UHGV virus genome: UHGV-0286546
Source: a virus
Length of the DNA: 64,000 bases
Strand: one strand, 5' to 3'
Program-made: the position numbers and the translations under genes
Shown: positions 1,596 to 22,132 of the stretch, in pieces
Position numbering within the stretch: position 1 is the first letter of the stretch
Layout: each line of letters starts with the position of its first letter
Notes under the pieces: model-generated
The model's input: only the letters and a program-made list of their open reading frames with translations
What the model was told of the DNA's origin: nothing
Database searches by the model: none

Positions 1596-1603
1596 ATTTT
1601 TAT

Positions 1604-1723
1604 GAGAGGGTAGCTCAGTCTGGTAGAGCAACGTAAAAAAGTATTTAGTATTTAAGTACGTTCAGCAACATATATTTTTGGTTGGTAACCCGTGTGTCGT
1701 AGGTTCAAATCCTACCCCTCTCA
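1604..1723 (+). ncRNA. tRNA-like RNA with intact acceptor/D/T arms but ~45-nt expansion of the anticodon region (intron-containing tRNA, pseudo-tRNA or Y-RNA-like)
   Basis: GAGAGGG..CCCTCTC acceptor pairing, D arm GCTCAGTCTGGTAGAGC, T arm GTAGGTTCAAATCCTAC; between them ACGTA-21nt-TACGT stem plus ~35 extra nt; no encoded CCA. Confidence 0.5.
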
Positions 1724-2021
1724 ACAAGTTTTGGTTTGTTAGTTTAGATAGGCTATAATTAAAGTAAGTAAGTTTGGAAGTTACGACACAGACCAAATAA
1801 CCTATCGTTTCCAAATTATCTTTATCGTTGTCGTGAAGGATAAAGAGTGAAAAACTAACGTTAAAGTGACAAAAAGTATACTTAATTATCCAAAGTATTG
1901 CCAATATCACTTGAATTTATGGGTGTCGTGTTTTCGAAAGAGCATGAAGGTCAGGGTCAATCCCAAAAGAGTCACGAACGTGGATTTCATATTTTACCTC
2001 CACCTGCCCATAATTTTTTAT
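1724..2021. other. ORF-free, GC-elevated spacer between tRNA-like elements; candidate structured ncRNA region
   Basis: No ORF >60 aa except one overlapping antisense ORF; local GC visibly higher than flanks; several short palindromes. Confidence 0.3.
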
Positions 2022-2113
2022 GCTCCGTCGTAGTCTTGGTGACCACTAGTTGAATGTCTATAGCTCCAGTCAATTAGTATGGGAATACTGTTCGAATCAG
2101 TTACGGGGTACCA
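2022..2113 (+). ncRNA. second tRNA-like element (acceptor GCTCCGT/ACGGGGT, canonical T arm TACTG-TTCGAAT-CAGTT, encoded CCA) with nonstandard ~40-nt anticodon/variable region
   Basis: 7-bp acceptor pairing incl. two G-U, D-like GTC-TTGGT-GAC, T-loop TTCGAAT, discriminator A + CCA at 2111-2113; core cannot be folded into a standard anticodon arm by eye. Confidence 0.4.
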
Positions 2114-2562: not shown

Positions 2563-2650
2563 GGAGGAATGGCAGAGTGGCTTAATGCAGCGGTTTACTA
2601 AACCGTCGTACCGAAAGGTGCCGTGGGTTCAAATCCTACTTCCTCCGCCA
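2563..2650 (+). tRNA. tRNA-Ser (class II, long variable arm, G73), anticodon reads ACU as hand-folded
   Basis: Acceptor GGAGGAA/TTCCTCC, discriminator G, encoded CCA, long variable arm CGTACCGAAAGGTGCCG, T arm GGGTTCAAATCC; anticodon loop TTACTAA. Confidence 0.8.
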
Positions 2651-3013: not shown

Positions 3014-3046
3014 TGTTTATAGATTAACAGAAAAAAGGAAGTGGAT

Positions 3047-4531
3047 ATGTCTGATAATAAAACAATGACTGAAAAAGGTGCTATTACTAATCAATCTACA
3101 TTAGACAAAGTTGTAGATTGGTTTTATCATGGAGCCGCATTACGTAGAGAAAAAAACAAAGACCGTATTATAGCTTTGTTTGATGATGCTTTTAAACAGG
3201 ATAAAACCAAAGCATTGCGTATTTTATTTTATATTCGTGATATTCGTGGTGGTCAAGGTGAAAGACGCATTTTTAGAATTTGCTTAAATCATTTGGCAAA
3301 AATAGAATCTGCTTGGTTAAAAGACAATTTGGCATTAATTGCTGAATACGGCAGATATGATGATTATTTGTGCTTGCTTGATACAGAAATTAAAAGTGCT
3401 GTAATTGATTTCGTTAAAGCACAATTAGATAAAGATATTGCTGCAATAGATAGCAATACACCTATTTCATTGCTTGCCAAATGGATGCCTTCCGTTACAA
3501 CCAAGAATAAAGAAAAAAGAAGATATTTAAATGCTCTTTTGAATTCTGGTAAATTTGGCACAGTAAAAAATTATAGACAAACGTTATCTAAACTTCGTGA
3601 TAAATTAAATATTGTTGAAAAGAATCTTTGCAATAAAGCCTTTGCTGAAATTGAATATTCTAAAGTTTCTTCTAATGCAATGTCTAAGTATTCAAAAACT
3701 AGAATTTCATCTGGATTAGCTGGTACTTTTTGGCGCAATGACTTAGATAGATTTAAAATGTATTTAGACGCTGTTAAAAACGGTAAAACAATCGACGGCA
3801 AAGAAGTAAAAATAAATGCAAAAACCTTATATCCATATGATGTTATTACAAAATATATGAGTGGTTATAGTATAAGTCATCAAGAAGATCCTGCAGCGGA
3901 AGCTCAATGGAATGCTTTACCTGATTATGTACCAGAGATTAACGGCATTGTAATTTATGATACTTCGGGTTCAATGTATGGATTACCTATGGCTGTATCT
4001 TTGTCGTTGGCTATTTATATTGCTGAAAGAAATAAATCAGAAGTTTGGCGTAATTATGTTATTCCATTCTCATCTAATGCGACTTGGAAAAAAGTAAAGG
4101 GTAACAATTTAGTAGAAAAAATTGAATCTATTTATACTGGAGATTGTTCAAATACTAATTTACAAGCAGCCTTTGATCTTATTTTAGGTAAAGCTATATA
4201 TGCGCAAGTACCTAAAGAAGATATGCCAAAACAGCTGATTATTATTAGTGATATGGAATTTGATTCGGTTTCTTCTAATAACCAAACTAATTATGAAGCT
4301 ATAAAAAGCAAATATAAGAAAGCTGGTTATGACTTACCACAATTAATCTGGTGGAACGTTGAATCAAGAAGCAATCAAACACCGATTACAGTAAATGATA
4401 AAAATTGTTTATTGCTTTCTGGCTGTTCACCGGTAGTTATGCAAGTAGCTTTGGGTGGTTCATACGATTTTATGGAAGCAATCGATAAAATTATTAACCA
4501 AGAACGTTATAGTTGCATCAATTATAATTAG
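3047..4531 (+). CDS. vWA-domain protein with N-terminal alpha-helical domain; Ro60/TROVE-like (DUF2828-type) architecture
   Basis: MIDAS motif DTSGSM ~residue 300 followed by second acidic motif ISDMEFD; N-terminal ~300 aa helical with FYIRDIRGGQGERRIF segment; 494 aa like Rsr/Ro60; ATG 3047 6 nt after SD aaggaag (GTG at 3041 also possible). Confidence 0.8.
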   Translation: MSDNKTMTEKGAITNQSTLDKVVDWFYHGAALRREKNKDRIIALFDDAFKQDKTKALRILFYIRDIRGGQGERRIFRICLNHLAKIESAWLKDNLALIAEYGRYDDYLCLLDTEIKSAVIDFVKAQLDKDIAAIDSNTPISLLAKWMPSVTTKNKEKRRYLNALLNSGKFGTVKNYRQTLSKLRDKLNIVEKNLCNKAFAEIEYSKVSSNAMSKYSKTRISSGLAGTFWRNDLDRFKMYLDAVKNGKTIDGKEVKINAKTLYPYDVITKYMSGYSISHQEDPAAEAQWNALPDYVPEINGIVIYDTSGSMYGLPMAVSLSLAIYIAERNKSEVWRNYVIPFSSNATWKKVKGNNLVEKIESIYTGDCSNTNLQAAFDLILGKAIYAQVPKEDMPKQLIIISDMEFDSVSSNNQTNYEAIKSKYKKAGYDLPQLIWWNVESRSNQTPITVNDKNCLLLSGCSPVVMQVALGGSYDFMEAIDKIINQERYSCINYN

Positions 4532-5057: not shown

Positions 5058-5131
5058 TCGGGGGTCGTCTAGTGGCAGGACATGAGATTTTGGCTCTCAT
5101 AACGTTGGTTCGAATCCAGCCCCCCGAACCA
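5058..5131 (+). tRNA. tRNA-Gln (UUG)
   Basis: Acceptor TCGGGGG/CCCCCGA, D stem GTCT/GGAC, anticodon stem TGAGA/TCTCA loop TTTTGGC, T arm GTTGG-TTCGAAT-CCAGC, A+CCA. Confidence 0.85.
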
Positions 5132-7887: not shown

Positions 7888-8295
7888 ATGTTGGAAAAAA
7901 TAAAAGAAAAAATTAAAGATTGGTGGTTTTCTAGAGATAGTATTTTTAATTTTTATTTCTCAATATCTTCATCTGGTATTTTTATAAATTTTACTATATT
8001 AGATTACGGTATAGATTTAGATATCACTATTCCGTGTATTCTTCCTAGCTTCTATATTAAAACCTTTTATGAAAAAGAACAAGAAATCTTTACAAATAAA
8101 TTTTGGGGTGAACAGTTTACATTTGTTTCTGATTTGCGTACAGAATTTGGTACAGGTTGGTTTGTTAATCAAGATCATGCTGGTTTTAGTGCTCAAGCGT
8201 CAATTTTAGGTTTTAATTATAGTTATGAATTGAGAGATACAAGGCATTGGGATTACTTTAAAAATTGCTGGAAGAGCTGTTCAGAAGATAAATAA
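7888..8295 (+). CDS. hypothetical protein
   Basis: ORF with SD gaaaggaatg. Confidence 0.5.
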   Translation: MLEKIKEKIKDWWFSRDSIFNFYFSISSSGIFINFTILDYGIDLDITIPCILPSFYIKTFYEKEQEIFTNKFWGEQFTFVSDLRTEFGTGWFVNQDHAGFSAQASILGFNYSYELRDTRHWDYFKNCWKSCSEDK

Positions 8296-17891: not shown

Positions 17892-18074
17892 ATGGGATTT
17901 GAAGAAGCATTAAATTATATGAAAGAAGGTAAAAAAGTCTATATCAACGGTGATGATTACGCAATCATTGACGATGAAATAAGAGTTTTCCCAAATAAGT
18001 GGGATGATGATTTTCCAGCTTCGTTGGATAGTGATTTAATTTTATCTGATAATTGGAGCTTATGCGATGAGTAA
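17892..18074 (+). CDS. hypothetical protein
   Basis: ORF with SD gaggatagaaaag. Confidence 0.45.
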   Translation: MGFEEALNYMKEGKKVYINGDDYAIIDDEIRVFPNKWDDDFPASLDSDLILSDNWSLCDE

Positions 18075-18209
18075 AGAAAAGGTCTATATCTGTGTCGGTG
18101 AGGGCTACATAAACAACATCAGACAAGGCTTGTGCGGTGGCTATGGAACTGTTAGTAATATCATTCAATGGTTATTTAATCGTTCAAAAAAAGATTGTTT
18201 CCCTGAATA
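18066..18209 (+). CDS. small hypothetical protein (47 aa)
   Basis: ATG overlapping upstream stop; glycine/cysteine containing. Confidence 0.3.
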
Positions 18210-18313
18210 AACAGACAAGGAAATAATTAATTATTTTGCCAAGAATTACCGGAAAAGGTTTGAAGAAAAGAGCAACGAAAGCGGAGGTTGGAGTATTCAA
18301 AAGGAGAAATCAG

Positions 18314-18508
18314 ATGTGGCAGAAGATTAAAAAAATTTTAAATTTATACAAAAATTGGTTTTTATCAATATTGAAAATTTTATTTTTGATTTGTTTATTA
18401 ATAATGAGTTTAACTGTAATAATATTATCAGCCCCTTTTATTATTTCAACAAAAGTTCAAACGGTTTTACAAAATATGTTTGATAAGATTATAAGGTTTA
18501 TGTGGTGA
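18314..18508 (+). CDS. MWQKIK-family small membrane protein
   Basis: SD aaggag; shares 19-nt start region gatgtggcagaagattaaa with 18508 and 19122. Confidence 0.45.
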   Translation: MWQKIKKILNLYKNWFLSILKILFLICLLIMSLTVIILSAPFIISTKVQTVLQNMFDKIIRFMW

Positions 18509-18699
18509 TGTGGCAGAAGATTAAATGCTGGCTAAAACAACTATTTTGCAAGCACGAATGGAAGTGTTTAAATTATGACTGCAAATATCGTAAACCGAAT
18601 TGGTGTGGTGACGAGGGTTTAATTCATGGATTACCGTTATGTTGGGCTTGTTATTCTCGTCATGTAGTTTGTAAACATTGTGGAAAGATAAAAAAATGA
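18508..18699 (+). CDS. MWQKIK-family Cys-rich protein
   Basis: Shared start region; 10 Cys. Confidence 0.45.
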   Translation: MWQKIKCWLKQLFCKHEWKCLNYDCKYRKPNWCGDEGLIHGLPLCWACYSRHVVCKHCGKIKK

Positions 18700-19112
18700 G
18701 TGTACAAGCTTGTAGAATAAGAGGATTTGGTTATAAATTTGATTATGAATATCCATTGTTCTCTTTTATAAAAGGTGAAGATGAAGAAGAAATATTAGAC
18801 AACGAATATGACTTCATTGATGTTTTGGGATTGAATTTTAGTTATTATGATATGCATAACACCCCATCTGATAAAAATAAACGCAAATTAATGATTATTA
18901 CAGATGGAATGAATGGAAACTATAAAGCCGTTATGTTTGTAACTCAAGTTATTGATATGTATGATACTCATGGATTTTATGAGCAGGGTTGGGTAAGAGA
19001 TTTTAGAAATGACGACTGGTTGCGAAAATGTGCGAAAAGAGATATTGAAACGTTATTACAGCGAAAATTTGATGAAGAACCTATTGAATTAGATTTAGAA
19101 TATTATAGTTAG
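18696..19112 (+). CDS. hypothetical protein
   Basis: ORF; ATG overlapping upstream TGA. Confidence 0.5.
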   Translation: MSVQACRIRGFGYKFDYEYPLFSFIKGEDEEEILDNEYDFIDVLGLNFSYYDMHNTPSDKNKRKLMIITDGMNGNYKAVMFVTQVIDMYDTHGFYEQGWVRDFRNDDWLRKCAKRDIETLLQRKFDEEPIELDLEYYS

Positions 19113-19121
19113 GAGATTGTG

Positions 19122-19394
19122 ATGTGGCAGAAGATTAAACGCTGGTTTACTAGACCGTTACTTAAACCTAGAACAGTGTTAGCTAGAGCTGATATAGGCG
19201 GAGAATGGTTTAGATTTAAAGTTCATAAAGGTAACCAAATTTACCTATATTGGTTTGGTTATATGTTTCCCCTCGAGTTGCAAGAAGATGGTTCAACTAT
19301 TTGTAAAAAAGAGGGGATAAGAGGATACAATAAACCATATTATTGGCATTGGATAGGAGATGACGGTAGAGATTGTCGTCAGGCAACGTTGTAA
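19122..19394 (+). CDS. MWQKIK-family protein; 3' end is a frameshifted copy of the 3' end of 18508..18699
   Basis: Shared start region; ttgtaaatattgtggaaagatt vs ttgtaaacattgtggaaagata with 1-nt indel. Confidence 0.45.
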   Translation: MWQKIKRWFTRPLLKPRTVLARADIGGEWFRFKVHKGNQIYLYWFGYMFPLELQEDGSTICKKEGIRGYNKPYYWHWIGDDGRDCRQATL

Positions 19395-19436
19395 ATATTG
19401 TGGAAAGATTAAGTAATTTTTATAAGGATAGAAATG

Positions 19437-19874
19437 ATGAGTAAATCAAAACCAGAAGTCGGTGATATATGGGAAATATCTGATCCAAACGCTGGAACTT
19501 ACCGAGCTCTTGTCATTAATACAACCAACTTTAAACATCCCTATTGTATTACAGATGACCTAGAAGGATGTTTTTTATGGGGCTATTCAACTGAAACATA
19601 TATTGGTAACTCTAAAGGTTCAATTTCGGCTTTATTTGAGGTAAAAAACGATAATATTATAAAAGTAGGACAGATTTACGAATTACCAGAAACAAAGGGT
19701 AGAGTTGTTGTTATTAGAGCTCCTGAAACAAAATCTCCATTAGATTGGGTGTATTTTATTTTTGATAATGGATATACCAAAAGATTATGGCAGAAAACAG
19801 TTAAAGAGCTTAAACTCATCACAGAATACCCCACTTGGCAGGAGGCCGTTAATTCAAAGGAGTTTAAAAAATAA
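19437..19874 (+). CDS. hypothetical protein
   Basis: ORF. Confidence 0.5.
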   Translation: MSKSKPEVGDIWEISDPNAGTYRALVINTTNFKHPYCITDDLEGCFLWGYSTETYIGNSKGSISALFEVKNDNIIKVGQIYELPETKGRVVVIRAPETKSPLDWVYFIFDNGYTKRLWQKTVKELKLITEYPTWQEAVNSKEFKK

Positions 19875-19990
19875 TACAAATGGGGATGTGATAGTTTAGG
19901 CGTTTGAAATACTAGTTAGCCGATACGAAAGAGATTCCACCGGTGCGACTCTGGACATCCCCACTATTTTAACAAAGGAGTTTAAAAAAT
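19855..19990 (+). repeat. 18-bp direct repeat caaaggagtttaaaaaat flanking a ~100-nt GC-rich hairpin element
   Basis: Copies at 19855-19872 and 19973-19990; internal 9-bp stem tggggatgt/acatcccca. Confidence 0.6.
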
Positions 19991-20186
19991 GATTGATATT
20001 ATAAAAGCCTTCTGTGAAATGATAATAGATACTACTGTCATTACATTACTAGGTATCGTGTGTATTCTTCTATTTGTATGCGCCTTCTTATTTTTTCCAT
20101 TTAAAAGTATAAAAGCTTGGTTCGGTACACAAATATATAAAATCGCAGATACTATGGAATACTACTTAACAAAAACTGAATACTAA
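19989..20186 (+). CDS. small membrane protein
   Basis: ORF; hydrophobic core. Confidence 0.45.
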   Translation: MIDIIKAFCEMIIDTTVITLLGIVCILLFVCAFLFFPFKSIKAWFGTQIYKIADTMEYYLTKTEY

Positions 20187-20189
20187 AAC

Positions 20190-20930
20190 ATAACTACTAC
20201 TGAAAGATAAACAAATGAACACTACTGATAAAACATACCTCAAATCAAGAACTAAAACTGAATATAAACTCCTATCCTATATAACAAAAACACTAAACCT
20301 TAACTCAAAAGACTTTAAAATTAAAAAAGCCAAACGTAAAGATAAACCCTCTATGCTAATGTCTTCCATGCCAATTATAACTAACGTCTACAAATTTCTA
20401 AAAAATAATTATAACCTACCAGAACTTACTATATCTACATCATATTATTCAGATACAAAAAAACTACTAAGAAGATCTCATACTGAATATAATGTCCTAC
20501 ACCTCAAAATAAACAATACAGTACAAGATCCTCAAGACATACTAACCCTACTCCGTATTAAAAACTCTATATAACACACAATCTACCTATAGGGGCCATA
20601 CGTATATTACACAACCTACTACGTTAATAACTACGCTAATAGCTACACTAACTCCAACATGGCCCCTCTACATATCCCATAACCATACATACCACACAAC
20701 TTCACCTACAATACCTACAAGGGGCCTTACTTATACCTATACAACATAATACGGACCTACAACTATACTAGCCTATAAACTAACTTTACCTTTGGCCCCT
20801 CTACGAACTCTACGACTAATACTTCCCTTGCTACCTATGTACCCTGCCTTGCTACTTCTGCCTTTCTTTTATTTATCTTAACACTTCCAACGCTTCCCCT
20901 CCTACTGGATTTTATATTGAGCTTATTATT
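20190..20930 (+). repeat. G-depleted (A/C/T) strand-biased tract with four spaced GGGGCC/GGCCCC inverted motifs
   Basis: Top strand nearly G-free for ~750 nt; AGGGGCC at ~20591 and ~20721, GGCCCCTCTAC at ~20661 and ~20804. Confidence 0.6.
20215..20574 (+). CDS. LRIKGY-family small protein (ends ...DILTLLRIKNSI) encoded in G-depleted DNA
   Basis: C-terminal family motif; unusual A/C/T-only codon usage. Confidence 0.5.
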   Translation: MNTTDKTYLKSRTKTEYKLLSYITKTLNLNSKDFKIKKAKRKDKPSMLMSSMPIITNVYKFLKNNYNLPELTISTSYYSDTKKLLRRSHTEYNVLHLKINNTVQDPQDILTLLRIKNSI

Positions 20931-20939
20931 TATATACGT

Positions 20940-20970
20940 AAAGGCCCCATGGCGGGGGGCCCACCATGAG
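20940..20970. repeat. GC-rich palindrome aaggccccatggcggggggcccaccatg
   Basis: ggcccc/ggggcc hairpin with CCATGG; isolated GC island in AT-rich DNA. Confidence 0.5.
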
Positions 20971-20974
20971 ATAA

Positions 20975-21470
20975 TTAAAATATTTTCAATGGTGAATTTT
21001 TTTTATTTCAATGGTGAAAAAAATTTATTATTATAAATATATAATAAATAATAAAAAAGCTTAATTAAAAAAATTTTAATATAAATATAAAAAATACAAG
21101 GTTAAAATTTTTATTTTCAAGGCTAAAATTATTTATTATAATAAATTATAATTTAAAATAAAATTTTACAAAAGCTTTTTATTTTATATAATATGCAAGT
21201 TTGTAAATTTATTTTAAGAAGTAAATTAAAAGCTAATTAAATATAAAGAGCTTCAAGGCTAACTTTTTTGTTTTCAAGGCTTAAAAAATATAATATAATA
21301 AAAAAATTTTAATTAAAATAATAAAAAGCTTCAAGGTTGAAATTTTTGTTTTCAAGGTTCAAATTATTTATTATTATAAAAATATAATAAATAAAAAATT
21401 ATAAAAGCTTTTTATTTTAATAATAATATGCAAGTTTATAAGTTTATTTATTAAATATAAAAAAAGAATC
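20975..21470. repeat. AT-rich tandem/direct repeat region (ttttcaa(g/t)g(c/g)t.aa units; two ~130-nt higher-order repeats ending TATAATATGCAAGTTT)
   Basis: Repeated units visible at ~20985/21007, 21100-21230 and 21330-21460; no ORFs. Confidence 0.55.
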
Positions 21471-21623
21471 TAATCGTAATTTGTAAATATATAATACAAT
21501 TACAATTAGCCCTAGGAGAACAGTTGTCTCAGAGCTGTTGTGATTATACTATATATTTCGTTTTGACAGAGATGATATATATAGATTTTGTAAATTAACC
21601 AACCACTATGAAAGGAAAAAGCT

Positions 21624-21959
21624 ATGACAAAGGCTAAAAAAACCATGACTGTTGAAGAAGTACGTAAAGCAAGAGAAGAAAACATCCCGGTAGTATTTAA
21701 TATGATAGCTGCACTGAAGGCCATAGAAGATACGCCTGCCAAGGTTGTTAAAAGCGGTGCTCTTGGTGATTTCAGTAAGGATATTATGGAATTGTTTAGG
21801 CAGGCCGGTACCCCCTTGGCATTAAATCAGGTAAGAGCGGCACTTATAGCAGGGGGTAAGGAAGTTACAGCGAAGCAGGTTGCTGATAGATGCTGGTTGC
21901 TTGCGAAGCGTGGTCAGTTGAAGAAGGGTACTGATAAAGGTGTATATGAGTTAGCTTAA
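21624..21959 (+). CDS. hypothetical protein (possible small DNA-binding protein) in GC-richer island
   Basis: ORF preceded by TTAACCAACCAC motif and SD; codon usage much GC-richer than neighbours. Confidence 0.55.
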   Translation: MTKAKKTMTVEEVRKAREENIPVVFNMIAALKAIEDTPAKVVKSGALGDFSKDIMELFRQAGTPLALNQVRAALIAGGKEVTAKQVADRCWLLAKRGQLKKGTDKGVYELA

Positions 21960-22132
21960 GAGCGCCGCATGGTAATTGATATAAGGGGATGTCGTTAGTG
22001 ATGTCCCCTTTTGTTGTATATGAGTAGTATATATAAACGACGAAGATGAGTGAGCGTCGCTTATACATATTGCTTGATAGACAGAATTAAGTGATATGAA
22101 ACCCAACCGATATTAAATGAAAGGAAAATATT

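What the first reader, a model, noticed from the sequence alone, without database searches (positions are those of the whole stretch)
19855..19990. 18-bp perfect direct repeats flanking a ~100-nt GC-rich hairpin element between two genes
caaaggagtttaaaaaat occurs at 19855-19872 (covering the stop of gene 19437..19874) and at 19973-19990 (providing the RBS+ATG of gene 19989..20186). Between them is a GC-rich segment with a 9-bp stem tggggatgt/acatcccca enclosing ~65 nt. It looks like an insertion with target-site duplication (a miniature mobile or homing element, or an inserted terminator or ncRNA) that duplicated the original stop/start junction.
Basis: seen in the sequence. Interest (0 to 1): 0.55.

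Follow-up and report, generated by a model that had tools for sequence, protein, structure and literature searches.

The report
tRNA-like relic inserted between phage genes
A 100-base fragment resembling the top half of a tRNA sits between two overlapping genes of an uncultured ~243-kb gut phage. It is flanked by an 18-base duplication of the gene junction that keeps both genes intact, and close relatives still carry the uninterrupted site, so this is a real, modestly interesting insertion footprint rather than an active mobile element.

Summary
CAAAGGAGTTTAAAAAAT occurs exactly at 19855-19872 and 19973-19990, flanking a 100-nt core of 44% GC in a 30% GC genome, with a 9-bp stem.

Among near-identical phage contigs (~243 kb genomes from gut metagenomes), 10 loci have the empty site: one 18-mer, with the 146-aa and 65-aa genes overlapping in ATGA. 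Twelve fetched loci besides the window (about eight distinct contigs) are filled, and 2 carry an unrelated microhomology deletion.

The right repeat is a non-coding copy of the upstream gene's conserved C-terminal codons (KEFKK), so the direction is empty to filled.

The core is tRNA-like. It has a 7-8 bp acceptor stem, an adjacent 4-bp stem with a 7-nt T-type loop, discriminator A, and CTA where the phage's tRNAs have CCA.
- A covariance model of the phage's own tRNAs ranks it 13th, after the 12 real tRNAs (17.9 bits, E 0.011).
- The reciprocal model retrieves tRNAs.
- The D and anticodon arms are not supported, and Rfam and default ARAGORN reject it.

No second copy was found anywhere, so there is no evidence of an active MITE.

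Best reading: a single insertion of a tRNA-derived fragment with junction duplication, now a presence/absence polymorphism. Its function, possibly an RNase P processing site, is unproven.

The parts
19434..19874 (+). Upstream 146-aa gene. Its conserved C-terminal codons (..EYPTWQEAVNSKEFKK) contain the Shine-Dalgarno sequence of the next gene. The stop here is TAA.
   Evidence: The C-terminal motif is invariant in 13 homologues with 37-51% overall identity. In L001 the motif is kept with synonymous differences, so it is conserved at the protein level.
19855..19872 (+). Left copy of the duplicated junction (coding). At position 19 of the extended repeat G has become A, turning the duplicated ATG into ATA and the TGA stop into TAA.
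19873..19972 (+). Inserted core of 100 nt (97 nt if the duplication was 21 bp). It is absent from the empty-site relatives.
   Evidence: filled versus empty alignment. GC is 0.44.
19882..19966 (+). tRNA-like unit. Acceptor-like stem GGGGATG(T) paired with (A)CATCCCC, discriminator A at 19963, and CTA (19964-19966) where the phage's tRNA genes have CCA. The interior, about 43-50 nt, has no supported D or anticodon arm.
   Evidence: The covariance model of the phage's own tRNAs gives 17.9 bits, E 0.011 over 64 kb, full length and in register. It is the only extra ARAGORN call at -ps90. The model built from the element retrieves tRNA-Cys, Met, Trp and Ile. D-stem pairing probability is about 0.
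19881..19889 (+). 5' arm of the 9-bp stem. The first T is deleted in L013-16 and L027, leaving 8 bp.
19940..19954 (+). T-arm-like hairpin CCGG-TGCGACT-CTGG, lying directly against the 3' arm of the terminal stem. In variant alleles the G.U pair becomes A-U (CCAG).
   Evidence: Pairing probability is 0.57. It has 13/15 identity to the T arm of an intron-containing tRNA in L028.
19955..19963 (+). 3' arm of the 9-bp stem, including the discriminator-like A.
19973..19990 (+). Right copy of the duplicated junction. It is now non-coding and supplies the Shine-Dalgarno AAGGAG and the ATG of the 65-aa gene.
19989..20186 (+). Downstream 65-aa gene, a predicted small hydrophobic protein. In empty-site relatives it overlaps the upstream gene in ATGA.

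Best explanation
A fragment of about 97-100 bp, derived from a tRNA gene of the kind this phage lineage carries, was inserted once into the ATGA-overlapping junction of two small early genes. It keeps a short A/T leader, an acceptor stem, a T arm, a discriminator base, a decayed CCA and a T-rich trailer.

The event duplicated the 18-21 bp that contain both the stop codon of the upstream gene and the ribosome-binding site and start codon of the downstream gene. Both genes therefore stayed functional. A later G-to-A change in the left copy removed the duplicated start codon while keeping a stop.

The allele now segregates with the ancestral empty allele in a recombining phage population. It can probably be lost again by recombination between the two repeats.

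Shown here: the insertion, the duplication, the direction of the event, the single copy number, and the resemblance to the acceptor/T-arm half of a tRNA.

Inferred:
- The insertion was made by illegitimate recombination or by fill-in of a staggered break, with selection for intact genes setting the minimum length of the duplication, rather than by a transposase.
- The RNA, co-transcribed with the flanking genes, folds into a tRNA-like minihelix that RNase P and 3' processing enzymes could cut. That would separate the two messages and end their translational coupling.
For: Insertion and duplication:
- Filled and empty alleles differ by exactly core plus one repeat.
- A more diverged lineage (L023-25; AGTAAGGAG instead of TCAAAGGAG, about 6-7% different in the last 150 nt) is empty.

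Direction of the event:
- The repeat encodes K-E-F-K-K of the invariant family motif EYPTWQEAVNSKEF.
- The non-coding right copy must therefore be copied from the coding end of the upstream gene.

tRNA likeness:
- A model of 9 of the phage's own tRNAs ranks the element directly after the 12 true tRNAs, at 17.9 bits and E 0.011. The unrelated background is at or below 9 bits.
- A model of the element finds tRNA-Cys (23.6 bits) and tRNA-Met (23.1 bits) next after itself.
- ARAGORN at 90% threshold adds only this locus in the whole window.
- Global alignment to tRNA-Cys gives z = 6.3 and to tRNA-Met z = 4.3, within the range seen between real tRNAs.
- The flanks (..AAAT|G... and ...A CTA TTTT) resemble those of the phage's tRNA genes (..TTAT|G... 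and ...N CCA (A)TTT).
- The one substitution inside a stem converts G.U to A-U.

Not a transposon:
- It is single copy everywhere searched.

Short-repeat recombination is common in this neighbourhood:
- The ~700-bp indel 18690-19388 is bounded by a 29-nt repeat.
- The L017/L026 deletion lies between two TAAAAAA runs.
- L009 has a deletion between similar Shine-Dalgarno regions.
Against: - Rfam's tRNA model does not reach E 10, and default ARAGORN does not call the element.
- The D and anticodon arms have no thermodynamic support, and the covariance model score comes only from the acceptor stem, T arm and tail.
- The T loop has G where U55 is nearly universal (from general knowledge of tRNA).
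- No parent tRNA was found among the 18 tRNAs seen in the window and in L028.
- There are only four sequence variants, so covariation cannot test the fold.
- Core divergence (0-3%) is similar to that of the flanks, so there is no evidence of purifying selection on the RNA.
- A 28-nt exact match to a bacterial PBP4 gene hints at another possible origin.
- No expression data are available. The mechanism that produced the duplication is not observable from sequence.
Confidence: 0.6

Rival explanations
1. The element is a non-autonomous DNA transposon (MITE-like). It has inverted repeats TGGGGATGT/ACATCCCCA, is mobilised in trans by a transposase, and that enzyme makes an 18-bp staggered cut which produces the target-site duplication.
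For: - Its anatomy is a direct repeat, a short spacer, an inverted repeat, a core, an inverted repeat, a spacer and a direct repeat.
- The empty site is precise.
- Related genomes can carry transposase genes: L029 has an IS1595-family gene.
Against: - It is single copy in the window, in all fetched loci and in three public collections.
- The inverted repeats lie 8-9 nt inside the ends.
- As far as I know, 18-21 bp is outside the duplication lengths of the common bacterial IS families; IS1595 makes about 8 bp (recalled from memory, not tested).
- The duplication spans almost exactly the Shine-Dalgarno-to-stop unit. Selection on an arbitrary break explains this without any enzyme.
Confidence: 0.1
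2. The core is filler DNA with no tRNA ancestry, for example a captured piece of bacterial DNA. The stem plus hairpin resembles a tRNA only by accident, and the insert has no function.
For: - There is a 28-nt exact match (TCCACCAGTGCGACTCTGGACATCCCCA, the CCAG variant) inside a Peptidase_S13/PBP4 gene of a Rhodobacteraceae MAG. Extension of a chance 20-mer hit to 28 nt has a probability of roughly 3e-4 by my estimate.
- The fold is not more stable than shuffled sequence.
- Rfam does not recognise a tRNA.
Against: - Similarity to the PBP4 gene stops abruptly at the 28 nt, and the translated core does not match the Pfam profile.
- The donor would be a marine alphaproteobacterium, whereas this is a gut phage.
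- Two independent tRNA detectors place this locus first among non-tRNAs.
- Its flanks resemble the flanks of the phage's tRNA genes.
Confidence: 0.15
3. The insert is a regulatory module. It acts either as a transcription terminator or attenuator (a stable stem followed by CUAUUUU), or as an RNA element selected to uncouple translation of the 65-aa gene from the upstream gene.
For: - The stem has pairing probability 1.0 and is followed by a T-rich run 1-2 nt downstream.
- The insertion converts an ATGA-coupled gene pair into two genes 114 nt apart with a free ribosome-binding site.
Against: - The terminator scan makes no + strand call, because the loop is 65 nt.
- Both alleles are common, so the element is dispensable.
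- There is no promoter-like site in the core on the + strand.
Confidence: 0.07
4. The filled arrangement is ancestral, and the empty sites are all secondary precise deletions between the repeats.
For: - Deletions between short repeats do occur here (L017 and L026).
- No SNP in the flanks is perfectly linked to either state, so states may have changed more than once.
Against: - An 18-21 nt identity between the coding end of one gene and the leader of the next must itself have arisen by duplication.
- The duplicated stretch encodes the family's invariant KEFK motif.
- The most diverged lineage is empty.
- Individual empty alleles may still be revertants.
Confidence: 0.05
5. The element is a functional but aberrant tRNA, for example one with an 8-nt anticodon loop as in ARAGORN's relaxed call with anticodon 'gccg'.
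For: ARAGORN at -ps80 and -ps90 draws a cloverleaf with a 4-base anticodon.
Against: - That drawing shifts the acceptor stem out of its perfect register and contains mismatches.
- There is no CCA, whereas all 12 phage tRNAs in the window encode it.
- There is no supported D or anticodon stem.
- Rfam gives no hit.
Confidence: 0.03

Closest known systems
PeSL-mediated modular shuffling and mini-circles in T4-type phages (Arbiol et al. 2010, PMC2839356; Comeau et al. 2014, PMC4122927)
   Same: - Small cassettes in the variable early-gene region of a large myovirus-type phage (the capsid protein here matches Pfam Gp23) are gained and lost between near-identical genomes.
- The indels are bounded by short direct repeats that include the Shine-Dalgarno/ATG region.
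- The process is reversible in principle, through excision as a circle.
   Different: - Here the repeats are not reiterated promoter plus stem-loop cassettes. They are a one-off duplication of a single coding junction (no other copy).
- The cargo is a tRNA-like non-coding fragment rather than an ORFan.
- The repeats are only 18-21 bp.
MITEs and other non-autonomous bacterial transposons with target-site duplications
   Same: About 100 bp, non-coding, with inverted repeats, flanked by a direct duplication, and with a precise empty site in relatives.
   Different: - Single copy.
- The inverted repeats are sub-terminal.
- The duplication is much longer than is usual for IS families, and it coincides with a functional unit (ribosome-binding site to stop codon).
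tRNA pseudogenes and tRNA-like stable RNAs of large phages (for example the T4 tRNA region with its two extra stable RNAs; recalled from memory)
   Same: It sits in a phage rich in tRNA genes (12 in the window, at least 18 in the lineage). It keeps an acceptor stem and a T arm, and its flanks resemble those of the phage's tRNA genes.
   Different: - It lies 8 kb outside the tRNA clusters, between two protein-coding genes.
- It lacks CCA and the lower half of the cloverleaf.
- It carries a visible insertion footprint.
tRNA-like processing signals inside mRNAs (plant mitochondrial t-elements, the mitochondrial tRNA punctuation model, mascRNA; recalled from memory)
   Same: An acceptor/T-arm minihelix embedded in a polycistronic transcript between two coding regions. 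This is the minimal kind of substrate that RNase P recognises.
   Different: Cleavage has not been shown here. The element is polymorphic and therefore dispensable.
tRNA-derived SINEs (eukaryotic retroposons)
   Same: A tRNA-related head and a flanking duplication in the 7-21 bp range.
   Different: - No A-rich tail.
- It carries gene-like leader and trailer sequence rather than mature tRNA ends.
- No reverse transcriptase was identified.
- Single copy.

Membership tests
tRNA (Rfam RF00005 / ARAGORN) | Score at or above the family threshold (29 bits in Rfam; default ARAGORN call) | tested here: not met
   No tRNA hit even at E <= 10 on 19780-20060. Not among the 12 default ARAGORN calls. It appears only at -ps90 and -ps80.
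tRNA (Rfam RF00005 / ARAGORN) | A 7-bp acceptor stem with a discriminator base, stacked on a T arm with a 7-nt loop | tested here: met
   GGGGATG/CATCCCC plus A, with CCGG-TGCGACT-CTGG directly adjacent. The T stem has 4 rather than 5 pairs, and the loop has G at position 55.
tRNA (Rfam RF00005 / ARAGORN) | A D arm and an anticodon arm with a 7-nt loop | tested here: not met
   D-stem pairing probability is about 0. The homology-drawn cloverleaf scores -10.8 against an MFE of -21.4 kcal/mol. The covariance model treats the interior 43 nt as an unaligned insert.
tRNA (Rfam RF00005 / ARAGORN) | An encoded 3' CCA, as in all tRNA genes of this phage | tested here: not met
   CTA is at 19964-19966, whereas all 12 tRNAs in the window end in CCA.
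MITE / non-autonomous transposon | Multiple copies at different sites, each with its own target duplication | tested here: not met
   No second copy was found by blastn-short or covariance model in the window and loci, nor by exact seeds in IMG/VR, JGI metagenomes and GTDB genomes. The rest of the 243-kb genome could not be read.
MITE / non-autonomous transposon | Terminal inverted repeats at the element ends | tested here: not met
   The inverted repeats start 8-9 nt inside the boundaries defined by the empty site.
MITE / non-autonomous transposon | Flanking direct duplication and a precise empty site | tested here: met
PeSL-type cassette shuffling (T4-type phages) | Flanking repeats are reiterated early-promoter plus stem-loop cassettes present at many intergenic sites | tested here: not met
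   The 18-mer occurs only at these two places, even with up to 3 mismatches. It contains no sigma-70-like promoter. Promoter-bearing 78-nt repeats do exist nearby, at 21000-21400.
PeSL-type cassette shuffling (T4-type phages) | An indel between near-identical genomes, bounded by direct repeats covering the Shine-Dalgarno/ATG region | tested here: met
   compared with the description in PMC2839356.
Intrinsic terminator | A GC-rich hairpin with a short loop (3-8 nt) immediately followed by a T run | tested here: not met
   No + strand call in 18000-22000, and the loop of the terminal stem is 65 nt.
Group I intron / homing element | A catalytic intron fold, or an endonuclease gene | tested here: not met
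   No Rfam intron hit in 19780-20060. There is no ORF in the core. The core has no similarity to the group I intron found in the relatives' tRNA-Gln.
RNase P substrate (tRNA-like processing signal) | Cleavage at the 5' end of the acceptor stem in vivo or in vitro | not testable with these tools
   This requires RNA end-mapping or an enzymatic assay.

The most novel reading that the evidence does not exclude
The locus may be a fresh footprint of the still unknown process by which large phages acquire and scatter tRNA genes. In that reading, a tRNA-gene unit (or its transcript) is inserted at a staggered break, for instance a pair of nicks made by the HNH or GIY-YIG nucleases that are abundant in this lineage. 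Fill-in of the break produces an 18-21 bp target duplication. This would amount to a tRNA-derived mobile unit in a phage, analogous to SINE insertion.
Probability: 0.1. Interest if true: 0.7.

Novelty: new variant of a known kind. Interest (0 to 1): 0.4.

Why it matters
Gain and loss of small cassettes in the variable regions of large phages is well known. It is rare to see both alleles, with the direction of the event fixed and the junction intact.

Here the duplicated 18-21 bp is almost exactly the smallest unit that keeps an overlapping gene pair functional: ribosome-binding site, stop codon and start codon. This illustrates how selection can shape a 'target-site duplication' without any transposase.

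The cargo is tRNA-like, in a phage lineage whose tRNA genes are themselves in flux. Relatives carry a polymorphic group I intron in tRNA-Gln, and the window holds further unusual tRNA-like genes. If the RNA is processed like a tRNA, the locus would be a natural experiment on uncoupling two translationally coupled genes. If not, it is a neutral relic. In either case the direct biological consequence is probably small.

Tried and rejected
- Known RNA families: Rfam at gathering thresholds and at E <= 10 gave nothing credible for the core.
- Known phages: megablast, blastn and tblastn against INPHARED found no relative of the region. The capsid protein is at most 39% identical to any known phage.
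- Other copies: five exact seeds in IMG/VR, two in JGI metagenomes and one in GTDB genomes gave only the 28-nt PBP4 match. I treat that match as unexplained. The peptide encoded on the minus strand does not match Peptidase_S13.
- Parent tRNA: the 12 tRNAs of the window, six more in L028 and two intron-containing ones were compared. None is close.
- Alternative origin: I considered that the 65-aa gene with its leader once lay directly behind the tRNA-like unit, so that only one illegitimate join was needed. I rejected this because the leader encodes the upstream protein family's invariant KEFK motif.
- Covariation: only four variants exist, so no test was possible.
- Flanking-SNP phylogeny: the flanks are mosaic and no SNP tracks the filled or empty state.
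- Protein annotation: Pfam and PHROGs gave nothing for the neighbouring small proteins.
- Ro60 link: a link between the DUF2828/DUF7788 protein and Ro60/Y RNA was not supported at the sequence level in the PDB.
- One look-up failed because the ORF start I guessed is not on record.

Full report
**Observation.**
- The 18-mer CAAAGGAGTTTAAAAAAT is present exactly at 19855-19872 and 19973-19990. The identity extends to 21 nt with one mismatch.
- The left copy is the end of ORF 19434..19874 (…S K E F K K stop). The right copy carries AAGGAG and the ATG of ORF 19989..20186.
- The 100 nt between them are 44% GC in a window of about 30% GC.
- The core contains the 9-bp stem TGGGGATGT/ACATCCCCA (19881-19889 and 19955-19963) around 65 nt.
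- The 18-mer has no other match in the window, even with three mismatches.
- In 100 Markov-simulated windows, no exact repeat within 300 nt exceeded 16 nt.

**Relatives with and without the insert.**
- The window belongs to an uncultured phage with genomes of about 240-245 kb, assembled many times from metagenomes. One fragment was binned with a Succinivibrionaceae MAG.
- The major capsid protein matches Pfam Gp23 but is at most 39% identical to any phage in INPHARED. The region itself has no match there.
- Looking up contigs that encode the exact flanking proteins and their cluster variants gave 24 informative loci. Some of them are overlapping fetches from the same contig.
- Twelve loci, from about eight distinct contigs, are filled like the window: L002, L003, L005-L008, L013-L016 and L027.
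- Ten loci are empty: L004, L009, L010, L018-L020 and L022-L025. They read …GTTAATTCAAAGGAGTTTAAAAAATGATTG…, with a single 18-mer and the two genes overlapping in ATGA.
- Two loci (L017, L026) carry an independent deletion from about 19649 to 19982, between two TAAAAAA runs.

**Direction of the event.**
- The C-terminal half of the 146-aa protein belongs to a family of proteins of about 80 aa. Their last residues, EYPTWQEAVNSKEF, are invariant although overall identity is only 37-51%.
- A distant homologue (L001) keeps the motif with synonymous differences, so the conservation is at the protein level.
- The Shine-Dalgarno sequence of the downstream gene is formed by the K-E codons of this motif.
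- In filled alleles the right repeat copy is non-coding yet still spells these codons. It must therefore be a copy of the upstream gene's end.
- The most diverged lineage sampled (L023-25, junction AGTAAGGAG…) is empty.
- Empty is ancestral and filled is derived.
- The one difference between the copies, G to A in the left copy, turns the duplicated ATG into ATA and the TGA stop into TAA. It removes a spurious start codon and keeps a stop.
- Whether the original duplication was 18 or 21 bp cannot be decided.

**Age and population behaviour.**
- Filled alleles differ by 0-3 substitutions and one 1-nt deletion in the core. The adjacent genes differ by 1-4% overall, and by 4-8% at third codon positions of the upstream gene.
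- In some lineages both repeat copies have mutated.
- No flanking SNP is perfectly linked to the filled or empty state.
- The insertion is therefore not very recent, and the alleles sit on mosaic backgrounds. This is expected for a recombining phage population, or for occasional precise loss through the repeats.

**What the core is.**
- Default ARAGORN and Rfam do not recognise the core. As a whole it folds no better than shuffled sequence (z about -1).
- Its ends nevertheless have the layout of the top half of a tRNA:
  - GGGGATG pairs with CATCCCC.
  - A 4-bp stem with the 7-nt loop TGCGACT lies directly against the 3' strand of that stem.
  - An A follows as discriminator, then CTA where every tRNA gene of this phage has CCA, then a T-rich trailer.
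- I tested this resemblance in four ways:
  - A covariance model built from the element with only these two helices finds, after itself, the phage's tRNA-Cys (23.6 bits), tRNA-Met (23.1), tRNA-Trp and tRNA-Ile, full length and in register.
  - A model built from nine of the phage's own tRNAs finds the 12 tRNAs and then 19882-19966 as the 13th hit (17.9 bits, E 0.011 for the 64-kb window). The next three hits are other tRNA-related sequences near 1600-2100. Apart from antisense matches over real tRNA genes (up to 12.8 bits), the remaining background is at or below about 9 bits.
  - ARAGORN at a 90% threshold adds exactly one call in the window, and it is this locus.
  - Global alignment scores to tRNA-Cys (z = 6.3) and tRNA-Met (z = 4.3) are within the range seen between real tRNAs.
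- The limits are clear:
  - The model score comes from the acceptor stem, T arm and tail only.
  - The D and anticodon stems have pairing probabilities near zero.
  - ARAGORN's relaxed cloverleaf is out of register.
  - No parent tRNA was found among 18 tRNAs of the lineage.
- The only substitution inside a helix changes G.U to A-U. With four variants this proves nothing.
- I conclude that the core is most likely a decayed tRNA-gene fragment. It is not a member of the tRNA family.

**Mobility.**
- No second copy exists in the window, in about 250 kb of related loci, or in the public collections that could be scanned.
- The inverted repeats are not terminal.
- The duplication spans almost exactly the unit from two bases before the Shine-Dalgarno sequence to the stop/start codon. 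This is what selection would leave after any insertion into an ATGA-coupled pair.
- Neighbouring indels in this variable region are also bounded by short repeats. This resembles the recombination-driven cassette shuffling described for T4-type phages (PMC2839356), although here the repeat is a unique duplicated junction rather than a reiterated promoter cassette.
- I therefore favour a single illegitimate event, either fill-in of a staggered break or bridging of two broken sister genomes, over transposition. The mechanism is inferred, not shown.

**Function.**
- All genes from about 14 to 38 kb are on the + strand, so the element is presumably co-transcribed with them.
- A tRNA-like minihelix is the kind of structure RNase P recognises (general knowledge). 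Processing would separate the two messages, and the insertion in any case ends their ATGA coupling.
- Both alleles are common, so the element is dispensable. I give the processing idea about one chance in four.

**Unexplained.**
- The 20-mer seed found one hit in GTDB genomes. It extends to a 28-nt exact match with the CCAG variant, inside a Peptidase_S13 (PBP4) gene of a marine Rhodobacteraceae MAG.
- By my estimate such an extension has a probability of about 3e-4.
- Similarity stops abruptly, and the translated core does not fit the protein family. I record it as a probable coincidence that I cannot fully dismiss.

**Verdict.**
- The insertion-with-duplication reading is confirmed.
- 'Mobile element', 'homing element' and 'terminator' are not supported.
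- The cargo is a tRNA-like relic.
- Interest is moderate.

Noticed in passing
window 5058-5131; L029 7925-8235 (intron hit 7950-8139); also L031 and L033: tRNA-Gln is intact in the window and in L028. In L029 and L031 the sequence shows an insertion of about 220 nt in the anticodon loop. In L033 ARAGORN simply fails to call tRNA-Gln, which I take to be the same state. The insertion matches Rfam Intron_gpI (36.5 bits, E 8e-8, below the gathering score). This is a polymorphic group I intron in a phage tRNA gene. L028 ~150-434 looks like a second intron-bearing tRNA that shares GGTAGTGAAAACTATAGT.
   Followed up: partly
window 1603-1725: With introns allowed, ARAGORN calls a tRNA-Lys(ttt) with a 39-nt insertion. 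It has acceptor stem GAGAGGG/CCCTCTC, normal D and T arms, and a 3' ACA instead of CCA. Default ARAGORN and Rfam miss it.
   Followed up: partly
window 2022-2113: A 92-nt tRNA-like sequence with acceptor stem GCTCCGT/ACGGGGT, D stem TAGT/ACTA, T arm TTCGAAT and an encoded CCA. ARAGORN and Rfam do not call it, and the phage-tRNA model gives 12.3 bits. It may be another interrupted or atypical tRNA.
   Followed up: partly
window 3041-4531: A 496-aa protein with DUF2828 and DUF7788 domains lies inside the tRNA cluster. I wondered about a Ro60/TROVE-like protein with a tRNA-like RNA partner, as reported for some jumbo phages (PMC7824862), but there is no sequence match to Ro60 in the PDB.
   Followed up: partly
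window 20600-21600: An AT-rich stretch with no ORFs contains 3-4 copies of a 56-78 nt repeat (TTTTCAAGG…). Each copy carries a sigma-70-like promoter (TTTTCA-17-TATAAT; TTTACA-16-TATAAT). The repeats are reminiscent of the PeSL regulatory cassettes of T4-type phages.
   Followed up: no
window 18311-19417: Three small genes start with the same 19-21 nt (…ATGTGGCAGAAGATTAAA, giving MWQKIK…). A ~700-bp segment (18690-19388, two genes) is bounded by a 29-nt 86% repeat (TTGTAAA(C/T)ATTGTGGAAAGAT…) and is absent from L004, L010, L017 and L018. This is cassette gain or loss between paralogous gene ends. ORF 19119..19394 appears frameshifted relative to the CKxCGKIK end of its paralogue.
   Followed up: partly
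L017 and L026 (corresponding to window ~19649-19982): A deletion between two TAAAAAA runs removes the C-terminal domain of the 146-aa gene and the insertion site. The remaining N-terminal part of that gene is joined directly to the downstream ATG.
   Followed up: yes
L021 4007-4034 (Rhodobacteraceae MAG JAKVCP010000028.1): A 28-nt exact match to the 3' part of the element (CCAG variant) lies inside a Peptidase_S13/PBP4 gene (…TTLGMSRVALVDHSGLG…). It is probably chance, but the estimated probability is about 3e-4.
   Followed up: partly
L029 1080-1994: A gene for an IS1595-family transposase (Zn_ribbon_IS1595 plus DDE_Tnp_IS1595) sits inside one relative's phage genome next to the tRNA region. 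It is absent from L028 at the same place.
   Followed up: no
window 19647-19874 and proteins P0006-P0030: A widespread family of phage proteins of about 80 aa has an invariant C-terminal motif, EYPTWQEAVNSKEF. Its K-E codons double as the Shine-Dalgarno sequence of whatever gene follows. In several relatives the 146-aa gene is split into genes of 73 and 75 aa.
   Followed up: partly
window 2563-2650 and 2658-2751: There are two unusual tRNA calls: tRNA-Ser with anticodon ACT, and a 94-nt tRNA-Ile with anticodon TAT and a long extra arm.
   Followed up: no
window 17575/17879 and 32276/34120: There are two further exact repeats of a Shine-Dalgarno-to-ATG leader: GAGGATAGAAAAGATG, 304 nt apart, and GAAAGGAAAGTAAAATG, 1844 nt apart. 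They could be junction duplications of the same kind, or simply near-consensus ribosome-binding sites.
   Followed up: no
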